Source of the DNA: an uncultured archaeon
GTDB taxonomy: Archaea > Iainarchaeota > Iainarchaeia > Iainarchaeales > Iainarchaeaceae
NCBI GenBank assembly: GCA_964577555.1
Contig: CAZNZM010000003.1
Location: 92,915-124,914, forward strand
DNA length: 32,000 nt
Reading direction: 5' to 3'
Positions 133 through 32,000 of this stretch are shown here, piece after piece. Position 1 is the stretch's first letter. The number at the start of each line of letters is the position of its first letter. The notes beneath the pieces were generated by a model. The model worked only from the letters and a program-made list of their open reading frames with translations. It ran no database searches and was not told where the DNA came from. Position numbers and translations under genes: made by a program.

Positions 133-335
133 TTAATTTTTTCGTATTTTGGCGTTTTGCATGGATTTTTTGTTTTTGGTTTTTATAAAGTGTTTTGTTG
201 CTTGAGCTAATACAAACCATTTTTTTTATTTTTTTTTATGTTTTTTTTTTAATTTTGTGTTTTGGTTGTTATGGTTGGTTAAGCTAGTTTTTTTTGTTGT
301 TTTAAATCAAGGTTTGTTGGTCTTTTTATTTTTTT
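133..335 (+). repeat. T-rich intergenic repeat block A, a degenerate copy of the family seen at four other loci
   Basis: Long T runs on the + strand are punctuated by short GC islands (ttgagct at 202-208, ggttggtt). A taattttgtgttttggttg segment resembles the AAATTGTTTTGTC module of the other blocks. The block lies 3' of the minus-strand gene ending at 336. A further T-rich patch is at 61-95. Confidence 0.55.
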
Positions 336-3300
336 TTAATTTGAAAAGCATGTGTTGGCGTTGAATCCTTCGTTGGATAGGTTGTTTAGTTTGTCTCTGA
401 AATTAGAGATTATTTCTTGTTCGTTCCAGTATATTCCTACGTTTAGAGGTGCTTTTGAGTATCCTTGTTCGATTGTTCCGTATGCTATGCATGTTTGTTC
501 GTTTTCTATTTTGTTTAATGTATCGCTTATTGTCCATAATGCTTGGCTTGGGTTGTCGAGTGTGATTTCAGTATCTGTTCCTTTTATGTATCTTGCACCG
601 CTGATATTTCCATTGTCATTTAATGTTGGAACGTATATTACTCCTTGGTTTTGGCAGGCGTTTTTTATTCTTATTTGGTCGCCTTTACTTGGGGCATAAA
701 GTATTGTTTCAAGAGCAATGTCGTTTTTGGAAGTGCTTTCCCTTCCAAATACATATATTACGCGTGTGTTTTCCAATTCTTTGGCTATGTCGCATTTTGG
801 GCCAGTGTATGAGCTTAGTTGTGAGTCTGTTCCTATTAGTTCTGGCAATGGTTTTCGAGTGTCAAGATCGTTGCATATCGGGGTTTCATCTTTTAGATAT
901 GCTATTTCCACTAGCCTTGCAAGACTTGGGCCTGCATCTATGCTTCCTTTGCTATCTTTTATAATGTATCCCATGGCGTTTTTTTTGCCATCGTTTTCTG
1001 CTTTGAAAATTATTGGTATTGGCAGCGAGGCAGCGAATGTCATGGAGTATTCTGGGGTTTGGTTGTTTGTTTCTTTTTTTGAGATTGAAAGTATTTTTCC
1101 TGGTTCGTTTTTGCTTAAACTTATAAAGTCGTTTTTGCGTTCTACTTCAATTATTGCAATTGGTTTGGAGTCGTTTGTTGTTGGAATTGTATAAACGTCA
1201 AAGTCGTGCCTTTCGTTCAATATAAAAAATGGGACTTGGCTGTTTTGGTTTTTTAGTTTGAAGCCAACTCCGTAGCCGTCTCTATGCAATACGTCTCCGG
1301 TTTTTCCAACGTAGGCGTCGATTGGCAGATAGTATAGCAGGTTTGCTGGGAATTCTTCGTCAGTTATTTTTGTGAATTTGACTAATATTTTTGCTTTTGG
1401 GTTTCCTTCATTATCAAATAATTTTTGGAATTTTGAATCGTCCAATTCAAACGAAATTGTAATCAAGTATTTTCCTGGTTGGAGTATTGGTTCTGGCGTT
1501 GAGAATACAAGCCTTGTTTGGTCTTTGAAATATTTGTCCCAGGACATTTGTTTGGCGTTTCCTGTAGTATAGTATTTGATTATTTGTGCTTGGTTGTCAA
1601 AAAATCGTTCACGCATAAAGGCGTCAAAGTCGTTTCTGAAGTCTTGAGAAAAGCCGTCTCGCATCATATAAACTGGGAAAGATAGTTTAGAATTGGCTTG
1701 TGCAATGTTTCCTTCAGATATTAAATCGTTTATTGTGTTGAGTTTTTTTATTAGCATTATTGAAAATTGTGTTGAATCGCATACGTTATAATTGCCTAAA
1801 TTGTCTGGAGAACAAAAGTTTTCTGAAATGTTGTTGGGTCTCCATTCGTATTTTATTTTTGGTTTTACGTCTTTGCCTGTAAATGCAGTATTTCTGCCTG
1901 TTGAAATAATAGAGCCATCAAGTTCTCGGCATATGCCTGCTGAAACGGCTTTGATTTCAATCATGTATTTTTCCTTGTCAATCCAAGCCAAATTTGTATT
2001 TGTTATTATTGGCTCGTCAGTTATTACTTTTCTTGAAGATGTTCTTCCGTAAACTCTTGCACTGTTTGGGTTTTCTTGTATTATAAAAATTTCGGTGTCG
2101 TTGCTTGCTATTCTTTGTCCTAAAGTGTTAGTAGTGAATTTTTCTCTTGTTAATGTATTTGTGAAGCTGACTTTTCCGATTGTGAAAGAAACCATGCCGT
2201 GGTTGCCAATTGGAAGTTCAGGTGAGAACAAGCCAAGGTCTTTTGTACCTTCAAAAATATTGATTGTTGCTTTTTGTAATGGTGTTTCGGCTTTTGTATA
2301 GCTTTGAGGTCCAAAAGAGATGTCAATAATTCTGTCTTGAACTGTTTCTCCGTCAAAAGTTTTTCCTATGCGAAAGAAATCGCTTTTGTAATTGTTGCCT
2401 ATACTTGGATCATTTACTCCTATTATGCCTTCCATTTTCCAAGTGTAATTTTTGAATGTTTTGCCTTCTGGGTCTATTTCCCCTGGAACAGTGAATTCTG
2501 CTAATAGTGATTCTTCTATGTCGCCTGTGTGTGAATTATTGTAATATTTGAGTGTTTCTGGTTTGTTGCATGCGTCGCCAGAATTTGGAACGGCTACGCT
2601 GTGAAAGCTTCTTGACACCACTAGTCTTCCTGTTTCGTCATAAATTTCAAAGAAATGAACTGGGACGCCGTATGATGTTGTTTCGGGGCTGTCGTTGCAG
2701 AATTGTGCGTAATATTTTTTTCCAGGTTCTACTTGGAAACTTCCTGTTTTTAAAAATGGGGTGATTGCAATTGCGTTTACCGTGAATTCCACGTCCATAT
2801 TGATTGGCTCTATTTTTTTTCTTGAATCGGCTGTTTTTACCCCGTATATGTCTGAATATGTTATTTTTAGGGATAGTTGTTCTTGTTGTGGTGAAACGTT
2901 TGGTCTTTGAGCTGTTGCTTTCATTTTCAAAATATAACTTGCGTTTCTGCCTAATTCCAAACCTGGTTTGAAATCTGGAAAACTGCAATCTTTCAAATAC
3001 CCTCGCGAACCTCCGGTGCTGCAAAAACCTTCTGCGGGTTCCACGCTGTCTATTTTTATATCTACGTTGCTTTCATTTTTTACTTCCCAGAAGAAATTCA
3101 CTTCTTTTTCCGTTTCGTTTCCCCAAATGCTTTTAAGCAATCCTATTGTGTTGCTTTTTGCTGGTTTTATGCTTATTTGTCCTGGCACTACTATTATTTG
3201 TATATCCGCGTATTTTACCCAGTCATTAGGGTTTGTCGGATTTGCATTTATTTTTCTTGTGTATTCTATTCTGAAATCATATGTTCCGGCTTGGTTGAAA

Positions 3301-3704
3301 GGCAATGATTCCAAATAATCAGTTTTGATTCCATGCAATACGTTTCCTCCGTCGCATGCTTCGGCGTTTGTAATTTCATAGCCTTTTATCCATTCTTCTT
3401 CGGTTCCAAGCCCTGTTATTTTTACGACTTTTAAAGGCATTTTGACTTCTCTTCTTGCGCCATCCACGCATTGGTCTATGTATGTTGAAATGTTTGTCAG
3501 TTTTAGTTTTGTTCCTTCTGGCACAACAAATGTGCGTTTATTGTTGTTGGATGTTATTTCTTTGAATTCAGGTGTAAAAGTTATTGTCATGGATGGCGAT
3601 GTATTGATTTCAAAGTAATGGCAGTGCCTGCCTGCAAAAACAGGTGAAGAAAATAGCGTTAGGATTATTGGCAATAATAATGCAATTGCTTCAAAGCGTT
3701 TCAT
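336..3704 (-). CDS. Large secreted surface protein (about 1122 aa), beta-sandwich-rich (CARDB/NEW3-like segments), function unknown
   Basis: The track ORF is 336..3731. I trimmed the start to the ATG at 3704 because GGAGG (revcomp of 3712-3716) lies 7 nt upstream. The product then begins MKRFEAIALLLPIILTLFSSPVFAG, a classic signal peptide. There is no C-terminal TM and no catalytic motif. It overlaps the upstream gene by 14 nt. Confidence 0.85.
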   Translation of the reverse strand: MKRFEAIALLLPIILTLFSSPVFAGRHCHYFEINTSPSMTITFTPEFKEITSNNNKRTFVVPEGTKLKLTNISTYIDQCVDGARREVKMPLKVVKITGLGTEEEWIKGYEITNAEACDGGNVLHGIKTDYLESLPFNQAGTYDFRIEYTRKINANPTNPNDWVKYADIQIIVVPGQISIKPAKSNTIGLLKSIWGNETEKEVNFFWEVKNESNVDIKIDSVEPAEGFCSTGGSRGYLKDCSFPDFKPGLELGRNASYILKMKATAQRPNVSPQQEQLSLKITYSDIYGVKTADSRKKIEPINMDVEFTVNAIAITPFLKTGSFQVEPGKKYYAQFCNDSPETTSYGVPVHFFEIYDETGRLVVSRSFHSVAVPNSGDACNKPETLKYYNNSHTGDIEESLLAEFTVPGEIDPEGKTFKNYTWKMEGIIGVNDPSIGNNYKSDFFRIGKTFDGETVQDRIIDISFGPQSYTKAETPLQKATINIFEGTKDLGLFSPELPIGNHGMVSFTIGKVSFTNTLTREKFTTNTLGQRIASNDTEIFIIQENPNSARVYGRTSSRKVITDEPIITNTNLAWIDKEKYMIEIKAVSAGICRELDGSIISTGRNTAFTGKDVKPKIKYEWRPNNISENFCSPDNLGNYNVCDSTQFSIMLIKKLNTINDLISEGNIAQANSKLSFPVYMMRDGFSQDFRNDFDAFMRERFFDNQAQIIKYYTTGNAKQMSWDKYFKDQTRLVFSTPEPILQPGKYLITISFELDDSKFQKLFDNEGNPKAKILVKFTKITDEEFPANLLYYLPIDAYVGKTGDVLHRDGYGVGFKLKNQNSQVPFFILNERHDFDVYTIPTTNDSKPIAIIEVERKNDFISLSKNEPGKILSISKKETNNQTPEYSMTFAASLPIPIIFKAENDGKKNAMGYIIKDSKGSIDAGPSLARLVEIAYLKDETPICNDLDTRKPLPELIGTDSQLSSYTGPKCDIAKELENTRVIYVFGRESTSKNDIALETILYAPSKGDQIRIKNACQNQGVIYVPTLNDNGNISGARYIKGTDTEITLDNPSQALWTISDTLNKIENEQTCIAYGTIEQGYSKAPLNVGIYWNEQEIISNFRDKLNNLSNEGFNANTCFSN

Positions 3705-5406
3705 TTTTTTGCCTCCTTGCAGACAAAGCAATTAGAACTAATAAGACAATTATGATTGCGGCAAGTATGATAAATTCAAATTGAACACTGAATTGTTCTT
3801 TGTAATTTTCAATTTGTGTGCTTGATTCTTCTTCACATGTTCCTTTACAGCAAATTCCTTTTTCTGATGCAATGTCAATTTTGTTTCCGTTGCATTTTGT
3901 GTTTGATTCGCAAAGCACTCCGCCAAGTTCGTTGCACGATTTTGGTTTTTCAACTGTTAAATCTATTTCTTTTGATATTTGTTTGTTGTTTTTGAAGTCG
4001 TTTACAAGCACTAAATATTTTTTTCTTTCAATTGGGTAATATTTTTCAAGGCAATTGCCGGAATCGAAAGATTCATAATATCTTTCTAGGGAATTTTCTG
4101 CTTCAACAACCGAAATTGACAAATTAATGTCTTCTTCGTTGCCGTTTGCTGCAAAGCCGCAAGCCTTTATTTTGAGTTCTGATGGCTCTGAAAAAATCGT
4201 TTCAAGCCTGATTTCTCCCTTTTTTCCGTTATAATCTGTTTCTATTGGAAATATTTCAAAGCAATACTTGTCGTGGGTTGTGTTGTCTTTTTCTATTGCG
4301 CTGCATACTGTGAATTTTTGGTATGCCAAATCAGGCGTGAAATTTGCGTTTATTTCTTTTTCAATTTCTTTGAATTTTAAAGCAGGTATGTGTTGTTTTC
4401 CTTCGAATATTTTTTTTGCGTCTTTTTCTATCCAAATTGAAACGTTGAAATCGTAAAAATCCGGTTTTGTGTAATGGTCCGGAGAAGAGCCTATTAATGC
4501 ATAAATTTTGACTGGTTTGTTTGGTTTTAATTCATCTCCATAAAAAGCCATTTTTTTTATTTTTGCGGTGGGTCCTTCAACTATTGCTCTATTTCTGTAA
4601 AGCGAGATTGTTTTGCCGTCTTTGTCCATTAACTCTATTCTGATTGCGTATGCGCCTGGCATTGCTGGTGCTTTGAGTGTTAAATTGACTTGTTTTTCTT
4701 CGTTGGCTTCCAATTCAAGGTTTGTTTTTGCTTCTGTTAAAAATTTTTCGCATGCTGTGTCGTCCCAATCGCATAAACCAGTCCAAAGAACAAGGTTTTG
4801 TAATTTTTGATTTGACTGGTTTTTCAAGAAAATTTTACCTTCAATGTTTTGTTCTGGTTTAACCCAAGTTCCGATTGGTCCTGTGTCTCCGTTGAATTCT
4901 GTTTTTGTTCTTATTATGGTTGCGTTAGGGAAAGAGCCTGTTCCTTGTACTTTGAATTCTTTTTCAACAGGGTTGAGGAAAATATGAGGTATTCCGGTTA
5001 TTGGGGATCTTTTTGTTTTGAAGTATGCTAAAATAGTGTAAGTTCCTTCTTTGATATCTTTTGGCAGTGGGATTTCAAATGGGATTTTTTTTTCTTGGTT
5101 GGGCAACAATGCTATTGGGAACTTTTTTTCAAGGAAAATGTTTCCATTGTCTGAGAGTTGGGATGGATAACTTATGCTGCCTTTTGGTCCTGAAGCGATT
5201 TCTACAATTATTTCAGAATCATAAAATCCTGCTGAATCAGAATTGCCTGCTCTAAAATATCCTTTTAAATTTTCTCCCGCCTTGAGATTGTCTTTTTCAA
5301 GGTTTATTTCTACAAATCCTGTAAAAAATATGCTGGCTGATTGGGTTGGCATTGCCGAGAGAATCAGGATTATAATGCACATTGTTTTTGCAAAATAGGT
5401 TGCCAC
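3691..5406 (-). CDS. Type I membrane surface protein (571 aa): signal peptide, CARDB/NEW3-like beta domains, Cys-rich knot, C-terminal TM anchor
   Basis: The GTG start at 5406 directly abuts the TAA (5407-5409) of the upstream gene. The N-terminus MATYFAKTMCIIILILSAMPTQSAS looks like a signal peptide. Segments such as LELEANEEKQVNLTLKAPAMPGAYAIRIEL are CARDB/NEW3-like. The C-terminus reads CNELGGVLCESNTKCNGNKIDIASEKGICCKGTCEEE, then FEFIILAAIIIVLLVLIALSA, then RRQK. Confidence 0.85.
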   Translation of the reverse strand: MATYFAKTMCIIILILSAMPTQSASIFFTGFVEINLEKDNLKAGENLKGYFRAGNSDSAGFYDSEIIVEIASGPKGSISYPSQLSDNGNIFLEKKFPIALLPNQEKKIPFEIPLPKDIKEGTYTILAYFKTKRSPITGIPHIFLNPVEKEFKVQGTGSFPNATIIRTKTEFNGDTGPIGTWVKPEQNIEGKIFLKNQSNQKLQNLVLWTGLCDWDDTACEKFLTEAKTNLELEANEEKQVNLTLKAPAMPGAYAIRIELMDKDGKTISLYRNRAIVEGPTAKIKKMAFYGDELKPNKPVKIYALIGSSPDHYTKPDFYDFNVSIWIEKDAKKIFEGKQHIPALKFKEIEKEINANFTPDLAYQKFTVCSAIEKDNTTHDKYCFEIFPIETDYNGKKGEIRLETIFSEPSELKIKACGFAANGNEEDINLSISVVEAENSLERYYESFDSGNCLEKYYPIERKKYLVLVNDFKNNKQISKEIDLTVEKPKSCNELGGVLCESNTKCNGNKIDIASEKGICCKGTCEEESSTQIENYKEQFSVQFEFIILAAIIIVLLVLIALSARRQKNETL

Positions 5407-8400
5407 TTAATCAACTCCTTTATAGTAATCTTCAATTGTAATTAAAAAGAATGGATCTTCTAGGTTGTTTGTCAGGCCTGTGTTGGAAAGTATCAGTATT
5501 TCTTCTCTTGAGTTTGGGGTTTTGTTTATTTGCAATGGTGTTATATTGAGTTTTCTTGTGAATTTGTTGGCAAGGTCATTGTAAGGGTATGATTTGTTCA
5601 GGTTGTTTTCAGCTGGATCTTCTAGGCCTGTGTATGCTTTGTTTATTATGGCTACTTTCTCTTTGCCGTTTAAGAAGTCAAGCGTGTATTTGTTGTTGAG
5701 TTCGTCGCCCGCAAGCATTTCTGGGTTAATGCGTGTTATTACTAGTCTTGCTGTTTCGTCGTTAATTATAACTTTTACTATTCCTGCTCTATAAATTTTT
5801 GTTTCGCCTTTGTATTTTGCCAAAACATAAATCGGGTGTATCCCTAATTGCTTATTGGATGATACGTTGAAAGTCGCTTTGTTTCCAGGTGTTAGCGTAA
5901 TAGGTTCTGATTCGTTTAATGTTTCCGAAAGCCTTGTTATTGAATCTTTTATCACTATGTCGCTTTCCGTGTCTTTTGCAAGTTTTATTTCTATTTCTTT
6001 TTCGCATTCGTTTTGTATATTAAAATTGGTTGTATTTTTTCTTTGTATTTGAAGGATTAATTCATTTTCTATTTCTGGTGTTTCATTGTTTTCTTTTGAA
6101 AATTTTACGCATTGTATTGTTTCTTTTTGCGGCAAAGGGATTGACACGGTTTGCAATTCTGCGCTTGCGGTTTTATAATTTGGCAGTTTTTCAGCTTTAA
6201 CAATTATTTTTTTGCCGCTTTCAAAAGGCGGCACCGTCAAATTTACTATTCCTGAATTGTTTGTCAGGTAATTTGTGTTTTTTGATATTTGCGTGTCCGG
6301 GTCTTGAGGGTTTTCATACATTTTTATTTCGGCTTCGTTTATTGGGTTGTTTCTTTCATCTTTTGCGGTGGCAAGAACCATTGTTGTTATTCCTGCAGTG
6401 ATTGTAGTTGGTTGCAGTGTCAGTAAAATGTTTTTTAATCCTTCAACTGCTAAATTGGCTATAAATGTGTCTCCTTTGGTTCCAAGGTTCAAGCTTAAAT
6501 TCAAGTCTGCTTCTTGCAAAGGTTTTTTTGCAACGAATTCAACTCTGTATTCTTGTCCTGTTATTTGTTGGTTTGCGCCGAATTCTCCTATTGTTCTCTC
6601 GTTTCCAACAGTTATTTCAAGGGGGTTTAAAGCGTTTTTGTTTTTTACTGTCATTTTGACGTTTGAATAGCTTTTTCCTGATAAATTCAAAAGCGAGTAT
6701 GTTAACGTATATGTTTTTCCTTCAAGCAGCTTGTAAATTTTTTGTTCTTCCAGCGGAATGGTTCTTTCTTCATCAATCAAATTTACTGATGTGAAAACGA
6801 TTCCGCAATTAGATTTGCATATTGGGGCATCAAGTCTTGCACTCCAAAAATATAATTCTCTTGGTTTTGGTTTAAATGTTTCAACACCGTTAATTGTTCC
6901 TTTTGCACCCCAGCGCATTTCTATGATTGTATCTGGTTTTTGTGTTTCTGGAATTTCTTTTATTTTTACTGCCGCTGAAATTATGTAAGTGGTTTTTTCG
7001 GATGTGCCTAATGAAATTACTGCTTGTTTAGCGTCGCCAGAGGTTATGGAACAATCAGCATAGTCGTTTTCAGGGTTGAAGCATCCTGAATAAACCACTT
7101 CTGTTGATGCCGCATTTATTCCTGTTATTACTATTTTGCTGTCATTGGAGTTTGTTTGGTTTTGAAGCCCGGCTCTGAAAACCGCTTTGAGGTTTTCTAT
7201 TTTGTCTCCTGTTTGAAGCCTGAATTTGAAAACGTATTTTTTTCCTGATTCTATTTTGTCTGCAATTCTTCCATCTTCTTTGAAAACGTTTTCCAATTCT
7301 ATTTTGAATTCTGGATTTGCTGGGGGTTCTGGCAGTTTGACAAGTGTTACTGTTTCTATTTTTTTTACGTCTGGTTCTATTGTTATTTGTCCTGTTTCAG
7401 TTTTCAAATACCCGTTTTTTTGTATTATTAGTTTTGGTTTTGCATCTACTTTGAATTTTACTGATTCTGTCAATCCGTTGTTTTGAGTGATTTTTTTGGC
7501 TAGTTCTTTTCCGTTTATTGAATCTATGAAACTGACGTTTGCACTTTGCACTGCTTTGCCGTCAACGTCAACTACTTTGACTGCCAATTCGCCGTTAGCC
7601 AGTACAATGGTTATTGGCAATTCTAGAGTTCTGCCTGGTCTGAGGTCTGCTTTTGCCGATTTGCCTGTGTTTTTTGCACCATCCACGTATTTCACTGCTT
7701 CTGCGTAATAATTGCCCGGTGGCATGTTGTTTGCTTCAAATATTCCGTTTGAATCGGTTTCGCCTTCAACGAAAATAATTGGGTTGGATTTTTCATAAAT
7801 AGCCACGCTTGCGTTTGGTACGCTCTTTCTTGAATAGTCATTGACAATTACTTTGATTTTGCCCGAGTTAGATTGTTCAGCTTTTTCGATTTTGATTTCT
7901 TGCGGCTGTGTGCTGTCAATTGGTTTGAGATCTAAATGCGGTATTATTTTTCTGACATATTCTGGGTGGCTTGCTATTGCTGAATAGTTTTTGTCAGGTT
8001 CCAGGTTTATGAAAGAGACAATTCCGTCAGAGCCAGATGTTTTTAATACGCCTGAGTTTTGCAAGCCGATTATTAGGTTTGTATTGACTCCTTCTACTGC
8101 TGTTGAGGATTTTTTGTCAATAAATTTCAAGAGTGCCTTTTTTGCATTGTTTGGTTTTTCCAAGAGTATTTCTATTGTTTTTGTGTTTCCTTCTGAAAAT
8201 TCAGCAGCTCCTATTGTGAATTCGTTGCTTTGTCCTATTGTATAACCTGTGTTTTCTGGAGGAATTGCTTCTGCAATATAAGTTCCGAGTGGGACGTTTG
8301 GAATTATTTTGGATCCGCTGTCGTCTGTGTAGCCTCCGTCAATTATTGTTATGCCGTTAGATTTTATTTTGATTTTTGTTCCGCCTATGCCTGTAAGCAG

Positions 8401-9775: not shown

Positions 9776-9785
9776 ACTAAACTTT

Positions 9786-25412: not shown

Positions 25413-25430
25413 AAAAAAGTAATTCAAAAT

Positions 25431-25703
25431 TTAATATTTGATTGAAAAATTTTGAAATTCATTTTTTGGCTTGCTCCACGAAACTTTTACATTTTCAACG
25501 AATGCTGTTGGCGGGCCTTTTTCAATCGCTTTTAAAAATTTTTTCAAATTTTTCGAATTGCCTTCAGCAACAACTTCAACGCTTTTGTCTGGAAGGTTTT
25601 TAACATACCCTGAAACTCCATGCATTAATGCTTCGGCTTTTGCAAAATATCTGAAACCAACTCCTTGAACCCTGCCAAAAACAATTGCGTGAAGCCTTTC
25701 CAT
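25431..25703 (-). CDS. acyP: Acylphosphatase
   Basis: Motifs are GRVQGVGFRYFA and GYVKNLPDKSVEVVAEG. The ATG at 25703 has AGGTGA 8 nt upstream (revcomp of 25712-25717). Confidence 0.92.
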   Translation of the reverse strand: MERLHAIVFGRVQGVGFRYFAKAEALMHGVSGYVKNLPDKSVEVVAEGNSKNLKKFLKAIEKGPPTAFVENVKVSWSKPKNEFQNFSIKY

Positions 25704-25711
25704 GAAAAATT

Positions 25712-26128: not shown

Positions 26129-26151
26129 ATTCAAAAAAATATGTGTTGTAT

Positions 26152-26159
26152 TATATAAA
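26152..26159 (-). promoter_or_regulatory. TATA box (TTTATATA) of the NUDIX-acyP operon, implying a leaderless transcript
   Basis: The revcomp of 26152-26159 is TTTATATA, centred 27 nt upstream of the ATG at 26128, with no SD. Confidence 0.5.
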
Positions 26160-26446
26160 TCATAATGTAAAACTTGTAAAATAATGTAAAATACGCTTTC
26201 AACTTTGAAATTTATTTTTTTTCTCTTTTTTTTGGCATAATTCATTCGTTTTAGCTTTTTTAGTTATTTGGTTTGAATTTGCTGGTTTTTTGCTTGTTTT
26301 TCTTGTTCAATTTTTTTTACAAATTTTATTTTTTTTTTAATTCAAATTGTTTTGTGGGTTGTTTTTTTATTTTTTCTTGGCATTTTTTTTGTTTTGTTTT
26401 AATTATTTTTTTTGTCTTTGTTGGCTTGGTTTTTTTGGGGTTTTGT

Positions 26447-26526
26447 TTTTTTTGTTGAGCCAATGTTGTTTTTTTATTAGTATATTTTTTTGGCTAACTA
26501 ATTTTTTTGCCAAGTTTTTTTTGTAA
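26447..26526 (+). repeat. 80-bp perfect direct repeat, copy 1
   Basis: The sequence tttttttgttgagccaatgttgtttttttattagtatatttttttggctaactaatttttttgccaagttttttttgtaa is identical, base for base, to 26680-26759. Confidence 0.95.
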
Positions 26527-26679
26527 GCCGATTTTTTTGTGTTGTTTTTTTTGTGATTTTATTTTTTTTTAATTTTAAATTGTTTTGTCTTTTTTTTGTC
26601 TTGTTTTTTTTGTTTGTTTTTGGCGAGCCGTTTTATTTTTTTATTTTTTTTGTTTGAAATTTTGTTTTTTTTCGGGCTA

Positions 26680-26759
26680 TTTTTTTGTTGAGCCAATGTT
26701 GTTTTTTTATTAGTATATTTTTTTGGCTAACTAATTTTTTTGCCAAGTTTTTTTTGTAA
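26680..26759 (+). repeat. 80-bp perfect direct repeat, copy 2 (offset 233 bp)
   Basis: Identical to 26447-26526 by manual alignment. Confidence 0.95.
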
Positions 26760-26885
26760 ACTGTTTTTTTCAGTTATTTTTTGTGAATTTGTTTTTTTAG
26801 CCTTGTTTTTTTGTTTTTGTCTAGGCTATTTTTTGGGTCATTTTTTTGTTTTTGTTTTTTAAATGGTTTTCATCTGTCTAATATT

Positions 26886-27953
26886 ATGGAATCATTCGGG
26901 GTTGTGATAGAGGAGAAAAAAGCTCAGGATTTGCTTGTTTTTCTTTCTTCTGAAGGATTGTTGAATCATTCTTTAAAGCCAAAAAAAGAAGATAAGAAGA
27001 TAGTTTTTCCTGTTTGTGAAGATGCAAAAAAATTTTTTGAAAAATTGTCTGAAAATTTTCCAAGTGTGAAAGCCGGTGTTTTTGATTTTGAAGAAAGGCG
27101 CAGAAAGCCGCATAGTCTTAAAGATGCTTTGAAAGGCGTTTTGAATGATTCTGAATTGAAGTTTTGCCCTTCTTCTTTTGATACTATTGGCGATTGCGCC
27201 ATACTTGAGCTTGAAGAGGAAATAAAGTCAAAGGCGAAAATAATTGGCGAGGCTTTGCTTGGTTTTAATCCTTCAATAAAAACGGTTTATTTAAAGACCG
27301 GTGCGCATCAAGGAGTTTTTCGCGAGGAACCTGTCAAGTATGTTTGTGGTGAAAAAAAAGATTATGCTTTTTATAAGGAGCATGGTTGTGTTTTCAGGGT
27401 TTCTGTTGGAAAGGTTTTTTTTACTCCGAGGCTTTCAACCGAAAGAAAAAGGATTGCCGGTTTGATTAAGCCTGGTGAAAGGGTTGCTTGTCTTTTTGCC
27501 GGTGTCGGTCCTTTTCCAATTGTTTTTGCAAAAAACTCGAAAATGTTTGAAGCTGTTGCAATAGAACTTAATCCTGTTGCTTTTGAGGATTTGAAAGAAA
27601 ATATAAAGTTGAACAAGGTTGAGGGCAAGATAAGGCCTTTTCTTGGTAATGTCAAGGATTTTTCTTTTGACAAGGATTTTTTAGGAAAGTTTGACAGGGT
27701 TGTAATGCCTTTGCCTAAAGGCGGAGAAGATTTTCTTGATGATGCGATAAGGTTTGTCAAGCCTGAAGGCGGTGTTATTCATTATTATCAATTTGTTTCG
27801 GTTGATGCTCCTTTTGTTGTTCCAAGGAGACAGATTGCCAATGCGTGTGCTAAGGCAAATAAAAAATTTGAGGTTGTTGGAGAGAAAAAAGTCAGGGATT
27901 ATTCTCCAGAAATGATTCAGGTTGTTGTTGATTTTAAGGTTTGGAGTGTTTAG
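26886..27953 (+). CDS. trm5: tRNA (guanine37-N1)-methyltransferase Trm5 / Taw22 (Met-10+ family)
   Basis: Motifs are VFFTPRLSTERKRI, the SAM motif CLFAGVGPFPI and the catalytic ELNPVA. I trimmed the start from 26811 to the ATG at 26886, because the upstream part translates the T-rich repeat as a Phe-rich artefact. Confidence 0.88.
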   Translation: MESFGVVIEEKKAQDLLVFLSSEGLLNHSLKPKKEDKKIVFPVCEDAKKFFEKLSENFPSVKAGVFDFEERRRKPHSLKDALKGVLNDSELKFCPSSFDTIGDCAILELEEEIKSKAKIIGEALLGFNPSIKTVYLKTGAHQGVFREEPVKYVCGEKKDYAFYKEHGCVFRVSVGKVFFTPRLSTERKRIAGLIKPGERVACLFAGVGPFPIVFAKNSKMFEAVAIELNPVAFEDLKENIKLNKVEGKIRPFLGNVKDFSFDKDFLGKFDRVVMPLPKGGEDFLDDAIRFVKPEGGVIHYYQFVSVDAPFVVPRRQIANACAKANKKFEVVGEKKVRDYSPEMIQVVVDFKVWSV

Positions 27954-27961
27954 TTTTTGTT

Positions 27962-28861
27962 TTATGTTTTTTGTTGTGTAACAAGTCCTGCTTTTTCAAG
28001 CAAGTTTTGGTAATTCAAATCTGCTTGTTTTTGGATGTGTTCTATTTGTTCTGGATTCAAGTGTTTGAATCTTTTTTGCAATTCTAATGCTTCTTTGACG
28101 GGTTTTGGGTTTGCAGGGTTGAAATTTAGTTTGTATTTGCCGTCTTCTATTTCGTATAAAAACCAGAGTCTGGATTGGACGTTAAGTTTTGCGACTTTCA
28201 TTGTTATTCCGCCTTCAAATCCAGCGCCTAGACAGCATGGGCTGTCAATTACTATGAATGTTGGACCATTGATTTCTTTTGCTTTTTTCAATTTCATTTG
28301 CAAGTCTGCATAATAAGCGATTGATGCTGATGCCACGTATTTTATTCCGTGTGCTGCCGCTATTTCAGCTATTGGTTTTCTTTCGGTTTCTTTTCCTTTG
28401 TGCAATTTTCCGACTTGTGTTGTTGTAGTGGCTGCGCCGTATGGTGTTGCGCCTGATTTTTGCACTCCTGTGTTTGCGTAAAGTTGATTGTCATAGCAAA
28501 CGTATAGTACATTGTCGTTTCTTTCAAACATTCCGCTCATTGCTCCGAAGCCAATATCGTATGTGGCGCCGTCTCCTGCAATTACTACTACTTTGGTGTG
28601 GTTGTTTCCTTGTGCTTTTAGTGCTCTGGCTACGCCTGATGCGACTGCTGGGGCGTTTTGGAAGAGCGAGTGTATATATGGGACTCTCCAGGAACTTTGA
28701 GGGTATTGTGAGGATGTGATTTCCATGCATCCTGTTGCTTGTACAATAATTATGTCTTTGCCGAGTGTATCGGTTACTTGTATTAGTGCGTTGCTTGGAC
28801 CGCAACCTGGGCAACCAGAGTGCCCTGGCGAGTATAAGTGCATTTCGCTTTGTTTGCTCAT
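27962..28861 (-). CDS. porB: 2-oxoacid (pyruvate/2-ketoisovalerate-type):ferredoxin oxidoreductase, beta (TPP-binding) subunit
   Basis: Motifs are GCPGCG and GDGATYDIGFG (TPP motif). GGTGA lies 5 nt upstream of the ATG at 28861. Confidence 0.9.
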   Translation of the reverse strand: MSKQSEMHLYSPGHSGCPGCGPSNALIQVTDTLGKDIIIVQATGCMEITSSQYPQSSWRVPYIHSLFQNAPAVASGVARALKAQGNNHTKVVVIAGDGATYDIGFGAMSGMFERNDNVLYVCYDNQLYANTGVQKSGATPYGAATTTTQVGKLHKGKETERKPIAEIAAAHGIKYVASASIAYYADLQMKLKKAKEINGPTFIVIDSPCCLGAGFEGGITMKVAKLNVQSRLWFLYEIEDGKYKLNFNPANPKPVKEALELQKRFKHLNPEQIEHIQKQADLNYQNLLEKAGLVTQQKT

Positions 28862-28865
28862 TTTT

Positions 28866-30017
28866 TCACCCTTTCATTGAAGCTCTTGGAGCTTCTGTTG
28901 CAATCCATTGTTTTGTAGGATTTCCTTTCAATTTTTCAAATATTTCTTTTATGTGGCTTCTTTTTACTCCTCTTCCGCCTAATCCTCCGTAAAAGCTTGA
29001 AACCAAGCTGTTTGTTCCGTTTAGTGCTTCAAGAACTTCTAAATATACTGGTGCTTGTCCGCCTATGCTTAAATCCCTGTCAATGACTCCTACTCTTTTT
29101 CCTGAAAGCGTTTTTCTTAGTTCTTCTCTTGGAAATGGTCTAAAGACTCTCAAATGTAATGCTCCGACTTTTTCGCCGTTTGCTCTTAGTTCGTCAACCA
29201 CGTTCATTACGTTATCCATTACTGAACCAAGTCCTACAATGACTCTTTCAGCGTCTTCCACTTTGTATTCTCTTATGAGTCCATATTCTCTGCCTGTGAG
29301 TTCGCCCCATTTTTTTCCGGCTTCTTCTAAAAGTTTTTTTGCTTCTTGCATGTCTTTTACCAAGTCTTCTCTGAATATTTGATAGTGTGTCGGATTGGCA
29401 TAGACTCCGAGGCTTATTGGGTTTTCAGGGTCAAGTTTCAATGGGTATTTGTATGGAGGCAAAAATTTTTGGATTGTTTCTTCATCAGGAACGTCCACTT
29501 GTTCAACTGCGTGTGTTAGGTAGTGTCCGTCAACACACACCATTGTTGGCAAAAGGATTTTTTCTGCAACGTAATATGCTTGCGGTATGGAATCAACCGC
29601 TTCTTGGTTGTTTTTGCAATAAATCTGTATCCAGCCTGTGTCCCGTTGGCTTATCGAGTCTTGTTCATCGTTCCAAATGTTTAAAGGCGAACTAACTGCC
29701 CTGTTGCCATTTAATATTACGATTGGCAGCCTCATTCCTGATGCGCTGAAAAGCGGTTCATGCATGTATAGTAGTCCTTGTCCTCCTGTTGTTGTAAATG
29801 TTCTTGCGCCCGCGGCACTGGCTCCTATGAGAGCGGAAATTGCTGAAAATTCTGCTTCTACTGTAATATATTCTGGTATTTTTCCGTCTGCGTGGTATTG
29901 GCTGAGTTCCGCAGTGAGTGAGGTTGTGGGTGTTATTGGGTAGCATGCAACTACTTGGGGTTTGCAATTAACAACCACTTCTGCAATTGCTTTTGTGCCT
30001 TCTTTGGTTTTTATCAT
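28866..30017 (-). CDS. porA: 2-oxoacid:ferredoxin oxidoreductase, alpha subunit
   Basis: AVACYPITPTTS, TTTGGQGL and its size and position between the delta and beta subunits support the call. GTGAT lies 7 nt upstream of the ATG at 30017. Confidence 0.9.
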   Translation of the reverse strand: MIKTKEGTKAIAEVVVNCKPQVVACYPITPTTSLTAELSQYHADGKIPEYITVEAEFSAISALIGASAAGARTFTTTGGQGLLYMHEPLFSASGMRLPIVILNGNRAVSSPLNIWNDEQDSISQRDTGWIQIYCKNNQEAVDSIPQAYYVAEKILLPTMVCVDGHYLTHAVEQVDVPDEETIQKFLPPYKYPLKLDPENPISLGVYANPTHYQIFREDLVKDMQEAKKLLEEAGKKWGELTGREYGLIREYKVEDAERVIVGLGSVMDNVMNVVDELRANGEKVGALHLRVFRPFPREELRKTLSGKRVGVIDRDLSIGGQAPVYLEVLEALNGTNSLVSSFYGGLGGRGVKRSHIKEIFEKLKGNPTKQWIATEAPRASMKG

Positions 30018-30036
30018 TAATTATCACTTGTTTTTT

Positions 30037-30288
30037 TTAACTTTCCTCGATTCTTTTCATTTCAATGCATTTTACTGGGCATTCGTTTGCGCATATGCTG
30101 CATCCTTTGCAATATTCATAATCTATTTCTGGAATTTTTTTTACTTCTCCCATTATTCCTTCTGGGCAGAAGTTTTGGCAGATTCCGCATTTGATGCATT
30201 TGTCTCCATTAACTATTGGCATGTATGCTTTCCATTCACCTGTCAGGTTTGTGACACTTGAACCTGGTTTTGCGTGCGGTATTATCAT
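30037..30288 (-). CDS. porD: 2-oxoacid:ferredoxin oxidoreductase, delta subunit (2x[4Fe-4S] ferredoxin)
   Basis: Two cluster motifs are present: CIKCGICQNFCP and CKGCSICANECP. I trimmed the start to the ATG at 30288, which overlaps the gamma-subunit stop as ATGA. Confidence 0.88.
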   Translation of the reverse strand: MIIPHAKPGSSVTNLTGEWKAYMPIVNGDKCIKCGICQNFCPEGIMGEVKKIPEIDYEYCKGCSICANECPVKCIEMKRIEES

Positions 30289-30851
30289 TTTGCCACCGCC
30301 TTTTCGACTTTTGTGAGATCGTATGTTTCTTGTACTGCATTTATATTTGCTGTAATGATTGATTCTGGAAGTTTGCCTGTGAAATTGGCTTGTATTGCTT
30401 TTTTTATTGAATCCAATTTGACAATGCCTGTTACTTTGCAAAATGCTCCAAGCATGACTGTGTTAAGTATCAATTTTTTAAAATTTTTAAGTGCGACTTC
30501 GGTTCCGTCTACTGTAAAAATTCTTTTTGCTTTTAGCCCGAGTTCTTCGGGTTTTTTTGGCGAATTCACTATCAGTATTCCGTTTGGTTTCAGGCCTGCA
30601 CATACGTCTACTGATTCCAATATTGATGGGTCTCCAACTACAACAACGTCCGGTTCAGCGATTTCTTCATGGATTGTTATAGGTTTATCGTCAATCCTGC
30701 AATATGCTTCAACTGGCGGTCCTCTTTTTTCCGAGCCAAAAAAAGGAAAAGCTTGGCTGTATTTGCCTTCCAAATTGGCGGCGTATGCAATAAGTTCCGC
30801 GCCTGTAACCATACCTTGTCCGGCTCTTCCATGTAATCTGATTTCTTTCAT
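30285..30851 (-). CDS. porC: 2-oxoacid:ferredoxin oxidoreductase, gamma subunit
   Basis: MKEIRLHGRAGQGMVTGAELIA is the typical gamma N-terminus. The ATG at 30851 has a TTTATATA box 27 nt upstream. Confidence 0.88.
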   Translation of the reverse strand: MKEIRLHGRAGQGMVTGAELIAYAANLEGKYSQAFPFFGSEKRGPPVEAYCRIDDKPITIHEEIAEPDVVVVGDPSILESVDVCAGLKPNGILIVNSPKKPEELGLKAKRIFTVDGTEVALKNFKKLILNTVMLGAFCKVTGIVKLDSIKKAIQANFTGKLPESIITANINAVQETYDLTKVEKAVAK

Positions 30852-30874
30852 GTAAATTATCAAACGCAAGAAAC

Positions 30875-30882
30875 TATATAAA
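30875..30882 (-). promoter_or_regulatory. TATA box (TTTATATA) of the oxidoreductase operon, implying a leaderless transcript
   Basis: The revcomp of 30875-30882 is TTTATATA, centred about 27 nt upstream of the ATG at 30851. Confidence 0.5.
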
Positions 30883-30915
30883 GATTACGTTAAATGTACA
30901 ACAAAAAATCGTCAA

Positions 30916-31218
30916 TCAACTTATAACCCAGTTGTAGAATTTTTTGTTTGCTTCTGTTTGAAAAACAAGAATGCATGGGGTTTCATATGGGTGGAGTTGT
31001 ATTAGTTTTTTTTTCATGTTTTTTGTTTTTTTTTGTGAAACCTTGAATATTGCCACGATTTCTTTGGCAGAGGTTTTTTTGCCTTTCCATTTGTAATAGG
31101 AATTGCTTTGAATGATATTGGCGCATGCTATGAGGTTGTTAGCCAATAGGTAATTTATTACTTTTTCGGCGGTTTTTTTGTCTGGGAAAGGACAGTAAAC
31201 CAAATTGATTTTACCCAT
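30916..31218 (-). CDS. cutA: Divalent-cation tolerance protein CutA
   Basis: LVYCPFPDKKTAEKV, LIACANI and LHPYETPCI are typical of CutA1 at 100 aa. GTGAT lies 5 nt upstream of the ATG. Confidence 0.88.
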   Translation of the reverse strand: MGKINLVYCPFPDKKTAEKVINYLLANNLIACANIIQSNSYYKWKGKKTSAKEIVAIFKVSQKKTKNMKKKLIQLHPYETPCILVFQTEANKKFYNWVIS

Positions 31219-31228
31219 TCAAATCACT

Positions 31229-31516
31229 TTAATTTTTTGGAAAATTGATGTTAAATATGGTTGTCAAAACGTAATAAATCAGCAGTGCAAAGACTATTAT
31301 TCCAAAGACAATGGCTATTATGCTCAATATATTCAAAAAAAGGCTTTCTCCTTTGCGTAACACGACTTTTTCTTCCAAGTTTTTGGCGTTGTCAAGTATT
31401 TCTTTGGCTTTCACAGATTCAGAGTCTTCGTCAAGCTCTGGCTTGTCTTCTATCTCACCTTCTATATAAATTTCCTTGGAATTTGTTTCGTTTTTCGTTT
31501 CTTCTTTTTCAGCCAT
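31229..31516 (-). CDS. Small tail-anchored protein: acidic N-terminal region and one C-terminal TM, function unknown
   Basis: The ATG at 31516 (MAEKEETKNE...) has TTTATATT (revcomp of 31539-31546) centred about 26 nt upstream, matching the leaderless pattern of other first genes. The track start at 31555 lacks such a box. The TM is LFLNILSIIAIVFGIIVFALLIYYVL. Confidence 0.65.
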   Translation of the reverse strand: MAEKEETKNETNSKEIYIEGEIEDKPELDEDSESVKAKEILDNAKNLEEKVVLRKGESLFLNILSIIAIVFGIIVFALLIYYVLTTIFNINFPKN

Positions 31517-31538
31517 TTTAAAAATTACAATAATGTTT

Positions 31539-31546
31539 AATATAAA
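31539..31546 (-). promoter_or_regulatory. TATA box (TTTATATT) for the small-protein/cutA unit
   Basis: The spacing to the ATG at 31516 is about 26 nt, the same geometry as at 26152 and 30875. Confidence 0.45.
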
Positions 31547-31646
31547 TTTACTCATTAGGTTTGTTTGTTTTTTTGCGAGGGTTTTTTCTTTTTTTGTTTT
31601 TTTAATGTTTTTTTGTTTGTTTATTTTTTAGACATTTTTTAATTTA

Positions 31647-31701
31647 AAATTGTTTTGTCTTTTTTTGTGGCTTGGTTTTTTTATGGAATTTGTTTTTTTT
31701 T
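31647..31701 (+). repeat. 55-bp perfect direct repeat, copy 1 (period 299 bp)
   Basis: aaattgttttgtctttttttgtggcttggtttttttatggaatttgttttttttt is identical to 31946-32000. Confidence 0.93.
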
Positions 31702-31945
31702 TAGCAAGCCAAATTTTTTTGAGACTTTTTTTAATTCTTTTTTTGATTTTTGTTTTTTTTGTTTGAAATTATTTTTTGCGAGCCGTTTTTTTTTGGCGTA
31801 TTTTTCATTTTTTTGTTGTATTTCTGCTTTTTTGCAAGCCAATTTTTTTATTTTTGAAATTTAATTTGTTTTTTTTTGTTTGGTGTTTTTTTTTGAATTT
31901 GTTTTTTTGTGTTGTTTTTTTTTGTGATTTTATTTTTTTAATTCC

Positions 31946-32000
31946 AAATTGTTTTGTCTTTTTTTGTGGCTTGGTTTTTTTATGGAATTTGTTTTTTTTT
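31946..32000 (+). repeat. 55-bp perfect direct repeat, copy 2 (truncated by the window end)
   Basis: Identical to 31647-31701 by manual alignment. The identity may continue beyond the window. Confidence 0.93.

What the first reader, a model, noticed from the sequence alone, without database searches (positions are those of the whole stretch)
133..32000. Strand-polarised T-rich repeat family fills every large intergenic gap and partitions the locus into 5-9 kb modules
Five blocks share this character: 133-335, about 9440-9775, 16590-17076, 26246-26870, and 31556 to the window end. Sampled lines are roughly 70-75% T on the + strand, with very little A or C apart from short GC islands.

The blocks share two modules:
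- Module i is AAATTGTTTTGTC-T7-G(T)GGCTTGG-T7. It occurs at 16594, 26401, 26577, 31647 and 31946, and in degenerate form at about 9596, 26344 and about 250.
- Module ii is G[CT][AG]AGCC[AG] followed by T6-9. GCAAGCC occurs at 16769, 16899, 31704 and 31834. GCGAGCC occurs at 9553, 26623 and 31778. GTAAGCC occurs at 26523, TTGAGCC at 26455 and 26688, and GCCAAGCC at 9505.

Every copy has the same orientation. Yet the flanking contexts are all different: the 3' end of a minus gene, divergent starts, convergent ends, divergent starts, and the 5' end of a minus gene. Orientation therefore tracks the chromosome strand, not transcription, so a simple promoter or oligo-T terminator role cannot explain the blocks.

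All other spacers here are about 110 bp or less and many genes overlap. About 2.3 kb (roughly 7%) of shared non-coding repeat is out of character for so compact a genome. The blocks bracket coherent gene modules: the surface operon, the sugar cassette, a housekeeping stretch and the oxidoreductase unit.

Candidate roles are replication-polar or architecture-imparting sequences, domain boundaries formed by rigid dA:dT tracts, a binding array for a protein that recognises the GC islands, or a U-rich/A-rich ncRNA family. I know of no described element that matches.
Basis: seen in the sequence. Interest (0 to 1): 0.75.

Follow-up and report, generated by a model that had tools for sequence, protein, structure and literature searches.

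The report
T-rich repeat blocks, strand-skewed archaeon
The T-rich blocks are real, fast-changing non-coding repeat DNA in a small DPANN archaeon, and they all point the same way because the whole region has an unusually strong excess of T and G on one DNA strand, visible even at silent codon positions, whichever way the genes run.

Summary
Five blocks in the window, plus a sixth found 0.9-1.6 kb to its left, are 62-67% T on the + strand. They hold 112 T runs of 6 or more against 3 such A runs. They share two short modules far above block-matched shuffles. The same DNA appears in other assemblies.

The polarity is not special to the blocks. At fourfold-degenerate sites, + genes have T 0.52 and A 0.20; - genes have A 0.51 and T 0.20. 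In + strand terms the AT skew is about -0.43 in both gene orientations.

Strains about 88% identical share this skew. Relatives with 82-89% identical AdoHcyase protein have neither skew nor blocks.

The blocks turn over quickly. Blocks 3 and 4 are missing from sister strains. Blocks 2 and 5 sit at the same sites there but cannot be aligned, although modules i and ii persist.

I found no RNA structure, Rfam match, terminal inverted repeats or helical phasing.

Best reading: lineage-specific, satellite-like intergenic DNA that grows by slippage, duplication and ectopic copying, in a Diapherotrites lineage with extreme chromosome-strand asymmetry. Any polar termination of + strand transcription is probably incidental. 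A strand-specific mobile element is not excluded.

The parts
133..335 (+). Block 1. T-rich block between two minus-strand genes: the 3' end of the 1122-aa surface protein gene and the start of a 334-aa gene at 108.
   Evidence: 62% T. Weak module i-like stretch at 213-256.
9440..9813 (+). Block 2. T-rich part of the divergent spacer 9316-9813. The last ~55 nt form the conserved GH130 promoter region.
   Evidence: 63% T over 9440-9775. Module i at 9590-9607; module ii at 9548-9565. Present at the same site in sister strains but alignable only in the last ~75 nt.
16576..17076 (+). Block 3. It lies between convergent stop codons. Positions 16578-17074 are an insertion relative to the sister strains.
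   Evidence: 63.5% T. Module i at 16589-16606; module ii at 16764-16781 and 16894-16911. The site is only 9-17 nt long in L135, L142, L143 and L144. 78% identity over 236 nt to block 0.
26246..26885 (+). Block 4. Divergent spacer between the NUDIX and TYW2 genes. Window 26176-26840 replaces ~280 nt of ordinary sequence found in the sister strains.
   Evidence: 65% T. Module i at 26338-26355 and 26571-26588. Internal tandem duplication 26312-26621 against 26545-26859 (77%, 223 bits). 26447-26537 against 26680-26770 is 97% identical. Absent in L138-L141.
31556..32000 (+). Block 5. Upstream of the minus-strand 108-aa gene; it runs off the window end.
   Evidence: 66.5% T. Module i at 31641-31658 and 31940-31957. 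Module ii at 31773-31790 and 31829-31846. ~300-nt repeat 31560-31701 against 31865-32000 (82%). A 650-nt counterpart with several module i copies lies at the same site in strain B.
31641..31681 (+). Best copy of module i: AATT-N2-3-AAATTGTTTTGTC-T7-GTGGCTTGG-T7. The AT-rich core resembles an archaeal TATA box.
   Evidence: Six copies within 2 mismatches of the core, all on +. 0 of 1000 block shuffles reach this count. The nhmmer model scores 32 bits or more on 14 copies in two strains, all in the + orientation. It resembles the TYW2 promoter at 26856-26872.
16764..16781 (+). Typical copy of module ii: T5+-G[CT][AG]AGCC[AG]-T5+.
   Evidence: Six copies against 0.02 expected. The same GCGAGCC islands occur in blocks 2 and 5 of the sister strains and in block 0.
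1..32000 (+). Region-wide strand asymmetry: T over A and G over C on the + strand at silent sites of genes in both orientations.
   Evidence: Fourfold sites: + genes T 0.52 / A 0.20; - genes (coding strand) A 0.51 / T 0.20. In + strand terms the AT skew is -0.44 and -0.42, and the GC skew is +0.11 and +0.31. It holds gene by gene. Cumulative GC skew rises across the window.

Best explanation
What it is. The window comes from a DPANN archaeon (Ca. Diapherotrites/Iainarchaeota). Its chromosome, at least over the ~45 kb seen here, carries an extreme strand-specific base bias. The + strand is rich in T and G at unconstrained sites whichever way the genes run. Shown.

What the blocks are. They are non-coding, satellite-like DNA specific to this lineage. 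Their base make-up is a more extreme form of that same strand bias, which is why every copy has the same polarity. Shown for composition; inferred for cause.

How they arise. The blocks are not stable elements. They are gained, lost and rewritten between strains about 88% identical. They grow by T-run slippage and tandem duplication of 230-300 nt units, and segments are copied from one T-rich spacer to another. Turnover and duplications are shown; the copying mechanism is inferred.

What persists. Two short modules survive the turnover. One is a TATA-like AATT..AAATTGTTTTGTC-T7-GGCTTGG head. The other is the GC[AG]AGCC islands. Either they are the part that is copied, or they are under some constraint.

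Likely effect. By analogy with archaeal U-tract terminators, the dense T7-8 arrays would stop any transcription running in the + direction and let - direction transcription pass. I take this as a side effect rather than the reason the blocks exist. Inferred.
For: - Strand rule at fourfold sites in both gene orientations, and for nearly every one of 28 genes.
- The same rule holds in sister strains L117, L135 and L138, including oppositely oriented neighbouring genes.
- It is absent from L118, L113 and L114. Those relatives have 45-53% G+C overall where measured (L113, L114, L115), no T-rich blocks and compact spacers.
- Block composition (T 0.64, A 0.15, G 0.145, C 0.065) has the same ranking as fourfold sites in + strand terms (about T 0.52, A 0.20, G 0.16-0.19, C 0.10-0.125).
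- Divergence from strain B is strand-asymmetric: G/T 345 against C/A 159, p = 8e-17.
- Amino-acid usage differs by strand: F 6.9% and V 7.7% in + genes against 4.7% and 5.7% in - genes.
- Turnover: block 3 is a 497-nt insertion missing from four sister contigs. Block 4 is replaced there by ~280 nt of ordinary DNA. Blocks 2 and 5 keep their site, polarity and modules but cannot be aligned.
- Contigs that encode the identical GH130 protein differ in block 2.
- The only two differences between near-identical assemblies over 12.9 kb both lie in T runs of block 5.
- L117 has a 41-42 nt T8/GGCTT/AAATTG insertion in a short spacer.
- Tandem duplications lie inside blocks 4 and 5, and homologous segments link blocks.
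- Homopolymer runs are in mild excess even within genes.
- No RNA structure, Rfam family, tRNA, long ORF, inverted repeat or 10.5-nt phasing.
- A Diapherotrites genome with a bacterial-type origin-to-terminus GC skew is on record (PMC5905446).
- Two or more U4 tracts make strong aCPSF1-dependent archaeal terminators (PMC8716108).
Against: - T-run length peaks sharply at 7-8, with none of 11 or more. T runs are followed by G 62% of the time against 40% expected. Modules i and ii survive complete turnover of the surrounding sequence in two strains. Pure neutral drift does not predict these regularities; they hint at constraint or a copying mechanism with sequence preference.
- A 497-nt block appearing between two stop codons 9-17 nt apart needs an insertion event, not gradual drift.
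- Three + strand genes left of the window (-9664..-5670) do not follow the strand rule.
- Only about 45 kb of one strain could be examined, so a link to replication direction is an inference.
- Streamlined DPANN genomes are not expected to tolerate about 7% junk.
Confidence: 0.55

Rival explanations
1. The blocks are copies of a non-autonomous mobile element that inserts in one orientation relative to the replication fork. Single-strand DNA transposons of the IS200/IS605 type behave this way. Module i would be its conserved head, and after insertion the body decays quickly under the strand bias.
For: - Presence/absence differences between strains at precise sites: block 3 between two stop codons and block 4.
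- Module i sits 14 nt from the left edge of the block 3 insertion and heads each 230-300 nt unit in blocks 4 and 5.
- Homologous segments link distant blocks (block 0 to 3 at 78% over 236 nt).
- All 14 strong module i copies have one orientation.
- No terminal inverted repeats or target duplications are expected for that transposon class.
Against: - No transposase or TnpB-like gene in the 42 kb examined.
- No subterminal hairpins or defined right end. Folding shows no excess structure.
- Block lengths and internal order differ at every site.
- No common target sequence is evident at the two junctions examined.
- Most block-to-block similarity is compositional.
- Nothing similar was found in genome, metagenome or viral collections.
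Confidence: 0.17
2. The blocks are selected one-way transcription barriers. Arrays of U7-8 tracts recruit the termination factor aCPSF1/FttA and stop + direction transcription, insulating neighbouring units.
For: - T7-8 runs spaced 11-17 nt apart fit and exceed the 'two or more U4 tracts within 18-36 nt' signal that binds aCPSF1 best (PMC8716108).
- T-run length is tightly controlled at 7-8.
- Block 3 follows the + strand GT4 gene directly.
Against: - Only one of six blocks lies downstream of a + strand gene. Five lie upstream of, or between, - strand genes, where the RNA would be A-rich.
- Other convergent gene pairs make do with 8-18 nt spacers or overlap.
- Sister strains do without blocks 3 and 4.
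- Sense-strand T runs are not avoided inside + genes relative to synonymous shuffles.
- Hundreds of nt are far more than termination needs.
Confidence: 0.12
3. The blocks have a replication-linked role. They might be preferred primase start sites on a T-rich lagging-strand template, or polar sequences read by a fork-associated or segregation protein. In that case polarity is the function.
For: - Uniform polarity that coincides with the strand bias.
- Conserved GC islands that could be protein sites.
- From general knowledge, not tested here: archaeal primases initiate well on pyrimidine-rich templates.
Against: - No direct evidence.
- Presence is not conserved between close strains.
- Spacing is irregular.
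- Six of six in one orientation is only p = 0.03 on its own, and the compositional bias already explains it.
Confidence: 0.06
4. The blocks encode a family of small U-rich RNAs, or are arrays of decoy or alternative promoters. Module i would be a TATA box and the first U tract a terminator.
For: - The module i core TTTTAAAT/TTTAAAAT looks like the TATA boxes of real genes here and is nearly identical to the TYW2 promoter.
- The same 22-mer lies 16-37 nt upstream of an ATG in an unrelated archaeal MAG.
- A GGCUUG...CAAGCC hairpin is predicted after module i in block 5.
Against: - No excess folding energy and no Rfam hit.
- The hairpin is not maintained in the other copies.
- A T7 run immediately after the predicted start would give only abortive products.
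- The BRE-like purines lie on the opposite strand, so the direction is ambiguous.
Confidence: 0.06
5. The blocks are assembly artefacts of low-complexity reads.
For: - Contigs often break inside blocks 4 and 5.
- The last 200 nt of the window extend beyond every other contig and are an 82% repeat of 31560-31701.
Against: - Blocks 1, 2, 4 and 5 are reproduced at 99.96-100% identity in assemblies from different samples.
- Sister strains carry their own versions at the same sites.
- Flanks on both sides are unique sequence.
Confidence: 0.03

Closest known systems
Replication-associated strand compositional asymmetry (leading strand rich in G and T; classic strong cases such as Borrelia burgdorferi, recalled from general knowledge)
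   Same: Silent sites and amino-acid usage depend on which DNA strand carries the gene, not on gene function. The bias favours G and T on one strand. Cumulative GC skew is monotonic across the region.
   Different: The organism is an archaeon. A recent survey attributes archaeal skews to gene orientation rather than to mutation (bioRxiv 10.1101/2023.11.15.567178). The size of the bias (fourfold AT skew about -0.43) is very large, and it arose within a narrow lineage. A sign change at an origin or terminus could not be tested.
Cumulative GC skew in the Diapherotrite 'Candidatus Forterrea' (PMC5905446)
   Same: Same phylum. That genome has a bacterial-type origin-to-terminus skew with the origin next to cdc6, so replication-linked asymmetry exists in this group.
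   Different: That paper describes transposons and a skew curve used to check the assembly. It does not describe T-rich intergenic blocks or codon-level strand bias of this size.
Archaeal U-tract (oligo-T) terminators acting with aCPSF1/FttA (PMC8716108)
   Same: Several T tracts of 4 or more within a few tens of nt on the sense strand. The blocks are extreme arrays of such tracts for + direction transcription.
   Different: Real terminators are tens of nt long and sit at the 3' end of a co-oriented gene. Five of the six blocks are not in that position, they are 200-730 nt long, and they are dispensable in sister strains.
Minisatellite-like or low-complexity intergenic expansions by slippage and unequal exchange
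   Same: Tandem units (233 and ~300 nt), T-run length differences between near-identical assemblies, rapid loss of alignability between strains, and presence/absence differences.
   Different: The units are imperfect and punctuated by conserved short modules shared between distant loci. Polarity is uniform over 40 kb or more. T-run length is narrowly set at 7-8.
Strand-specific non-autonomous elements (IS200/IS605-derived MITEs, REP/BIME with RAYT transposases)
   Same: Short intergenic repeats without terminal inverted repeats or target duplications. Their orientation can follow replication direction, and they occur as clusters in spacers.
   Different: Those elements have defined ends with stable GC-rich hairpins and a cognate Y1 transposase. 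None was found here.
Poly(dA:dT) tracts as rigid or nucleosome-excluding DNA
   Same: Dense homopolymeric dA:dT tracts of 7-8 bp in intergenic DNA.
   Different: That role does not need strand polarity. No helical phasing was found, and chromatin could not be tested.

Membership tests
Replication-associated strand asymmetry | Base bias at unconstrained (fourfold) sites that follows the DNA strand, whichever way the gene points | tested here: met
   AT skew is -0.44 in + genes and -0.42 in - genes, in + strand terms. The gene-orientation component is -0.009. It holds gene by gene and in sister strains.
Replication-associated strand asymmetry | The skew changes sign at the replication origin and terminus | not testable with these tools
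   Only about 45 kb of this strain was reachable. The 147-kb NCBI contig listed could not be fetched. Three + genes at -9664..-5670 depart from the rule, but GC skew does not reverse there.
Replication-associated strand asymmetry | Ongoing substitutions are themselves strand-asymmetric | tested here: met
   Window against strain B over 20,030 nt: G/T differences 345 against C/A 159 (p = 8e-17). C/T 745 against G/A 768. The direction of change was not polarised; the within-clade sample was only 24 changes.
Archaeal U-tract / aCPSF1 terminator | Two or more T tracts of at least 4 within about 18-36 nt on the sense strand | tested here: met
   110 T runs of 6 or more in the five blocks as delimited, mostly spaced 11-17 nt apart.
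Archaeal U-tract / aCPSF1 terminator | Located at the 3' end of a gene transcribed in the same direction | tested here: not met
   True only for block 3, after the GT4 gene that ends at 16575. The other five blocks adjoin - strand genes.
MITE / IS-derived element | Terminal inverted repeats and target-site duplication, or defined hairpin ends with a partner transposase | tested here: not met
   No inverted repeats within or flanking the blocks. No duplication at the block 3 junctions. No transposase among 35 proteins scanned.
Structured non-coding RNA family | Match to a curated family, or folding energy beyond shuffled controls | tested here: not met
   No Rfam hit at gathering thresholds. 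Folding z-scores were 0.12, -0.91 and +1.2.
CRISPR or other regular repeat-spacer array | Near-identical repeats at a constant period | tested here: not met
   Tandem Repeats Finder gives only low-scoring overlapping periods of 8-43 nt at 64-85% match.
Phased A-tract curved DNA | dA:dT tracts repeated every 10-11 bp | tested here: not met
   The strongest periods are 13-22 nt and differ between blocks. Power at 10.5 nt is near background.
Protein-coding low-complexity gene (Lys-rich on the - strand, Phe-rich on the + strand) | A long open frame with homologues | tested here: not met
   Only 25-76 aa ORFs in several frames. A search with the concatenated peptides found nothing, though that search may have been blinded by low complexity.

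The most novel reading that the evidence does not exclude
This Diapherotrites lineage may have acquired a replication-coupled, strand-specific process, such as an asymmetric oxidised-guanine or deamination mutator, or an unusual fork. That process would both drive the strongest strand bias yet seen in an archaeon and seed or spread T-tract arrays headed by a conserved module. The blocks would then be polar elements that mark fork direction, either as a new single-strand mobile repeat or as priming or termination sites, and not merely junk.
Probability: 0.2. Interest if true: 0.85.

Novelty: new variant of a known kind. Interest (0 to 1): 0.6.

Why it matters
Strand asymmetry caused by mutation, as opposed to gene orientation, is debated for archaea. 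Here a natural lineage shows it at silent sites at a size that reshapes codon and amino-acid usage. Close relatives lack it, so the genetic change behind it could be found by comparing genomes.

The hypervariable T-tract blocks offer a live example of non-coding DNA expanding in an otherwise streamlined DPANN genome. They also explain why assemblies of this organism break.

If the blocks prove to be polar with respect to replication, they would give a sequence marker of fork direction in uncultured archaea.

Tried and rejected
- Collection scans with TTTTAATTNNAAATTGTTTTGT in genome, metagenome and viral contigs, and with TTTTTTGCRAGCCRTTTTTT in viral contigs, gave only single chance matches. 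The T-rich loci among them are eukaryotic-looking. The source genome is not in those collections.
- A protein search with concatenated Lys-rich peptides translated from the blocks, meant to find other blocks through spurious gene calls, found nothing.
- A search with the N-terminal 98 aa of the left neighbouring gene also found nothing.
- The structured-RNA idea was rejected.
- Phased curvature was rejected.
- Coding capacity was rejected.
- Avoidance of sense-strand T runs, as a proxy for terminator activity, gave no signal.
- Polarising substitutions inside the sister clade failed, because strains B and C are 99.6% identical and gave only 24 changes.
- Relaxed BLAST between blocks overstated homology. 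A scrambled-island control gave the same number of hits.
- The idea that module i was copied from the TYW2 promoter is not supported by relatives, whose TYW2 promoters differ.

Full report
**What the window is.** Pfam scans of the ORFs give an archaeal gene set. It includes a four-subunit pyruvate:ferredoxin oxidoreductase, diphthine synthase, TYW2/Trm5, DUF63, DUF357, ScpA, adenosylhomocysteinase, glycosyltransferases and large Ig-like surface proteins. The closest adenosylhomocysteinases are labelled Candidatus Diapherotrites or Iainarchaeum. The same DNA lies on JGI contig Ga0394875_0000993 (50,612 nt) and on contigs from JGI 3300043177 and Logan SRR12686701, at 99.96-100% identity. Window proteins are also listed on an NCBI contig of 147,078 nt, which I could not fetch.

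**Checking the observation.**
- The five blocks are 62-67% T, 13-16% A, 12-17% G and 5-8% C.
- They hold 112 T runs of 6 or more against 3 A runs, and no part of the window reaches 60% A.
- All other spacers are 111 nt or shorter.
- T runs cluster at 7-8 nt: 46 and 26 observed against 15.5 and 11.4 in dinucleotide shuffles of the blocks. None is 11 or longer.
- T runs start mostly 11-17 nt apart and are followed by G 62% of the time, against 40% expected.
- Module i, module ii and GGCTTGG occur 6, 8 and 4 times against 0.05, 0.03 and 0.06 in block-matched shuffles. None of 1000 shuffles reached those counts (positions).

A caution applies to overall block similarity. The general 60-70% similarity between blocks is a low-complexity effect, because scrambling the islands while keeping the T runs gives as many BLAST hits. 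Seven alignments exceed that control (best control score 118 bits):
- tandem copies in block 4, 223 bits;
- block 0 to block 3, 171 bits;
- block 0 to block 4, 147 and 132 bits;
- tandem copies in block 5, 136 bits;
- block 4 to block 5, 136 bits;
- block 3 to block 4, 123 bits.

So the repeat family is real but thinner than it looks by eye.

**A sixth block.** Extending left along the JGI contig shows a 732-nt block at window -1629..-897. It has the same composition, polarity and T-run peak, two module ii copies, and a 236-nt stretch 78% identical to block 3.

**The key result: polarity belongs to the region, not to the blocks.**
- At fourfold-degenerate sites, + strand genes have T 0.52 and A 0.20. 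Minus-strand genes have A 0.51 and T 0.20 on their coding strand.
- In + strand terms the AT skew is -0.44 and -0.42, and the GC skew is +0.11 and +0.31. The gene-orientation component of AT skew is -0.009.
- The rule holds for nearly every one of 28 genes. It shifts amino-acid usage: F and V are higher in + genes, N and T higher in - genes. TYW2 is richer in F and V than its orthologues.
- Block composition ranks the bases as fourfold sites do, only more strongly.
- Divergence from a sister strain over 20,030 aligned nt is strand-asymmetric. G/T differences number 345 against 159 for the complementary C/A class (p = 8e-17). C/T (745) and G/A (768) are equal in count.
- A recent preprint argues that archaeal skews reflect gene orientation rather than mutation (10.1101/2023.11.15.567178). 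This lineage is a clear exception at the codon level. A Diapherotrites genome with a bacterial-type cumulative GC skew is already known (PMC5905446).

**Phylogenetic depth.**
- Strain L117 (AdoHcyase 96% identical in protein) and strains B and C (about 88% nucleotide identity; L135, L138, L142-144) share the strand rule. The rule holds there even for a gene oriented opposite to its neighbours.
- Relatives with AdoHcyase 89%, 83% and 82% identical (L118, L113, L114) show no skew and have no T-rich blocks. L113, L114 and L115 measure 45-53% G+C overall, and their gene order is largely conserved.
- The bias and the blocks therefore arose together in a narrow lineage.

**The blocks turn over fast.**
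- In four sister contigs the GT4 and GDE_C stop codons are 9-17 nt apart. The window has the 497-nt block 3 at that point.
- Block 4 is represented in the sister strains by about 280 nt of ordinary sequence.
- Blocks 2 and 5 are present at the same loci and in the same polarity in strains B and C. They carry several module i and GCGAGCC copies, but only the promoter-proximal ~55-75 nt can be aligned with the window.
- Contigs that encode an identical GH130 protein differ in block 2.
- The only two differences between the window and the JGI contigs over 12.9 kb are a T10/T9 change and a G-to-T change that lengthens a T run. Both lie in block 5.
- L117 carries a 41-42 nt insertion made of a T8 run, GGCTT and AAATTG-T8 in a short spacer.
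- An HMM of module i scores 32 bits or more on 14 copies in two strains. All are in the + orientation, and none is in the unskewed relatives.

**What the blocks are not.**
- There are no Rfam matches and no tRNAs in the window.
- Folding energies are no better than shuffles.
- There are no inverted repeats and no regular repeat-spacer pattern.
- Only short ORFs in mixed frames occur.
- T tracts show no 10.5-nt phasing.
- No transposase was found among the 35 proteins scanned.

**Possible activities.**
- Real promoters here carry TATA boxes such as TTTATATA or TTTTAAAT about 25-38 nt upstream of the ATG. The module i core resembles them closely, especially the TYW2 promoter. It could therefore bind TBP, but its direction is ambiguous and a T7 run follows at once.
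- Archaeal termination relies on U tracts, and two or more U4 tracts bind aCPSF1 best (PMC8716108). The blocks should therefore stop + direction transcription and let - direction transcription pass.
- Only one block lies behind a + strand gene. Other convergent gene pairs need 8-18 nt. Sister strains lack blocks 3 and 4. Sense-strand T runs are not avoided in + genes. I therefore treat termination as a side effect.

**Conclusion.** The most economical account is lineage-specific, satellite-like non-coding DNA whose polarity is set by an extreme chromosome-strand bias. It grows by slippage, tandem duplication and ectopic copying.

Three regularities keep a strand-specific mobile element or a functional polar element in play: the narrow T-run length, the preference for G after a T run, and the survival of the two modules through turnover.

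The replichore test that would settle this needs the rest of the genome.

Noticed in passing
L119 19375-23369 (window -9664..-5670): Three + strand genes left of the window (456 aa, a 711-aa Ig-like surface protein, and a partial 265-aa gene) do not follow the strand rule. Their fourfold AT skew is -0.03 to +0.24 on the coding strand, while GC skew stays positive. This could mean recent acquisition, a recent inversion, or proximity to a skew switch.
   Followed up: partly
L119 17313-17409 and 18877-18993 (window about -3704..-3608 and -5288..-5172): Two intron-containing tRNA genes lie in ordinary, non-T-rich spacers: tRNA-Arg CCG by ARAGORN and a 117-nt tRNA by Rfam. A G+C-rich RNA-like stretch at about -5470..-5380 had no Rfam hit.
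   Followed up: partly
window 25712-26245 (minus strand): The NUDIX gene, which JGI calls an 8-oxo-dGTP pyrophosphatase of the MutT type, borders block 4. Its first 39 codons in the window (177 aa against 138 aa in sister strains) lie in sequence that is replaced relative to those strains. The true start is probably the internal MKKYG. This is worth noting because the strand-asymmetric class of differences is G/T.
   Followed up: partly
window 20829-21170 (minus strand): A pyruvoyl-type aspartate decarboxylase (PanD, PF02261) is present. From general knowledge this is more typical of bacteria than of archaea. It is conserved next to AdoHcyase in L117, in strains B and C (L138, L142) and on the window-strain JGI contig.
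   Followed up: no
window 13072-14802 (minus strand): A single ORF fuses a PfkB sugar kinase to a NagB/6-phosphogluconolactonase-like domain (568-576 aa). It overlaps the end of the convergent GT4 gene by about 60 nt. The fusion is conserved in relatives (L114, L135).
   Followed up: no
window 336-9315 (minus strand): An operon of three large secreted or surface proteins (1122, 571 and 1302 aa). Only the last has recognisable Ig-like or CarboxypepD_reg domains; the 1122-aa protein has no Pfam match.
   Followed up: no
window 31800-32000: The last 200 nt extend beyond the ends of all other contigs that carry this locus. They are an 82% copy of 31560-31701, so this end of the window is the least certain part of the assembly.
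   Followed up: partly
whole window, coding regions: Homopolymer runs of both A and T (5 or more) are in mild excess over synonymous-codon shuffles in genes of both orientations. An example is sense T5+ in - genes: 57 against 33. This suggests a general tendency to run expansion.
   Followed up: partly
L021 4400-4421 (uncultured archaeon MAG, CAZYEE010000301.1): An exact match to the module i 22-mer lies 16-37 nt upstream of an ATG in an unrelated, very AT-rich archaeal contig. This fits the view that the motif is a generic archaeal TATA-type promoter sequence.
   Followed up: no
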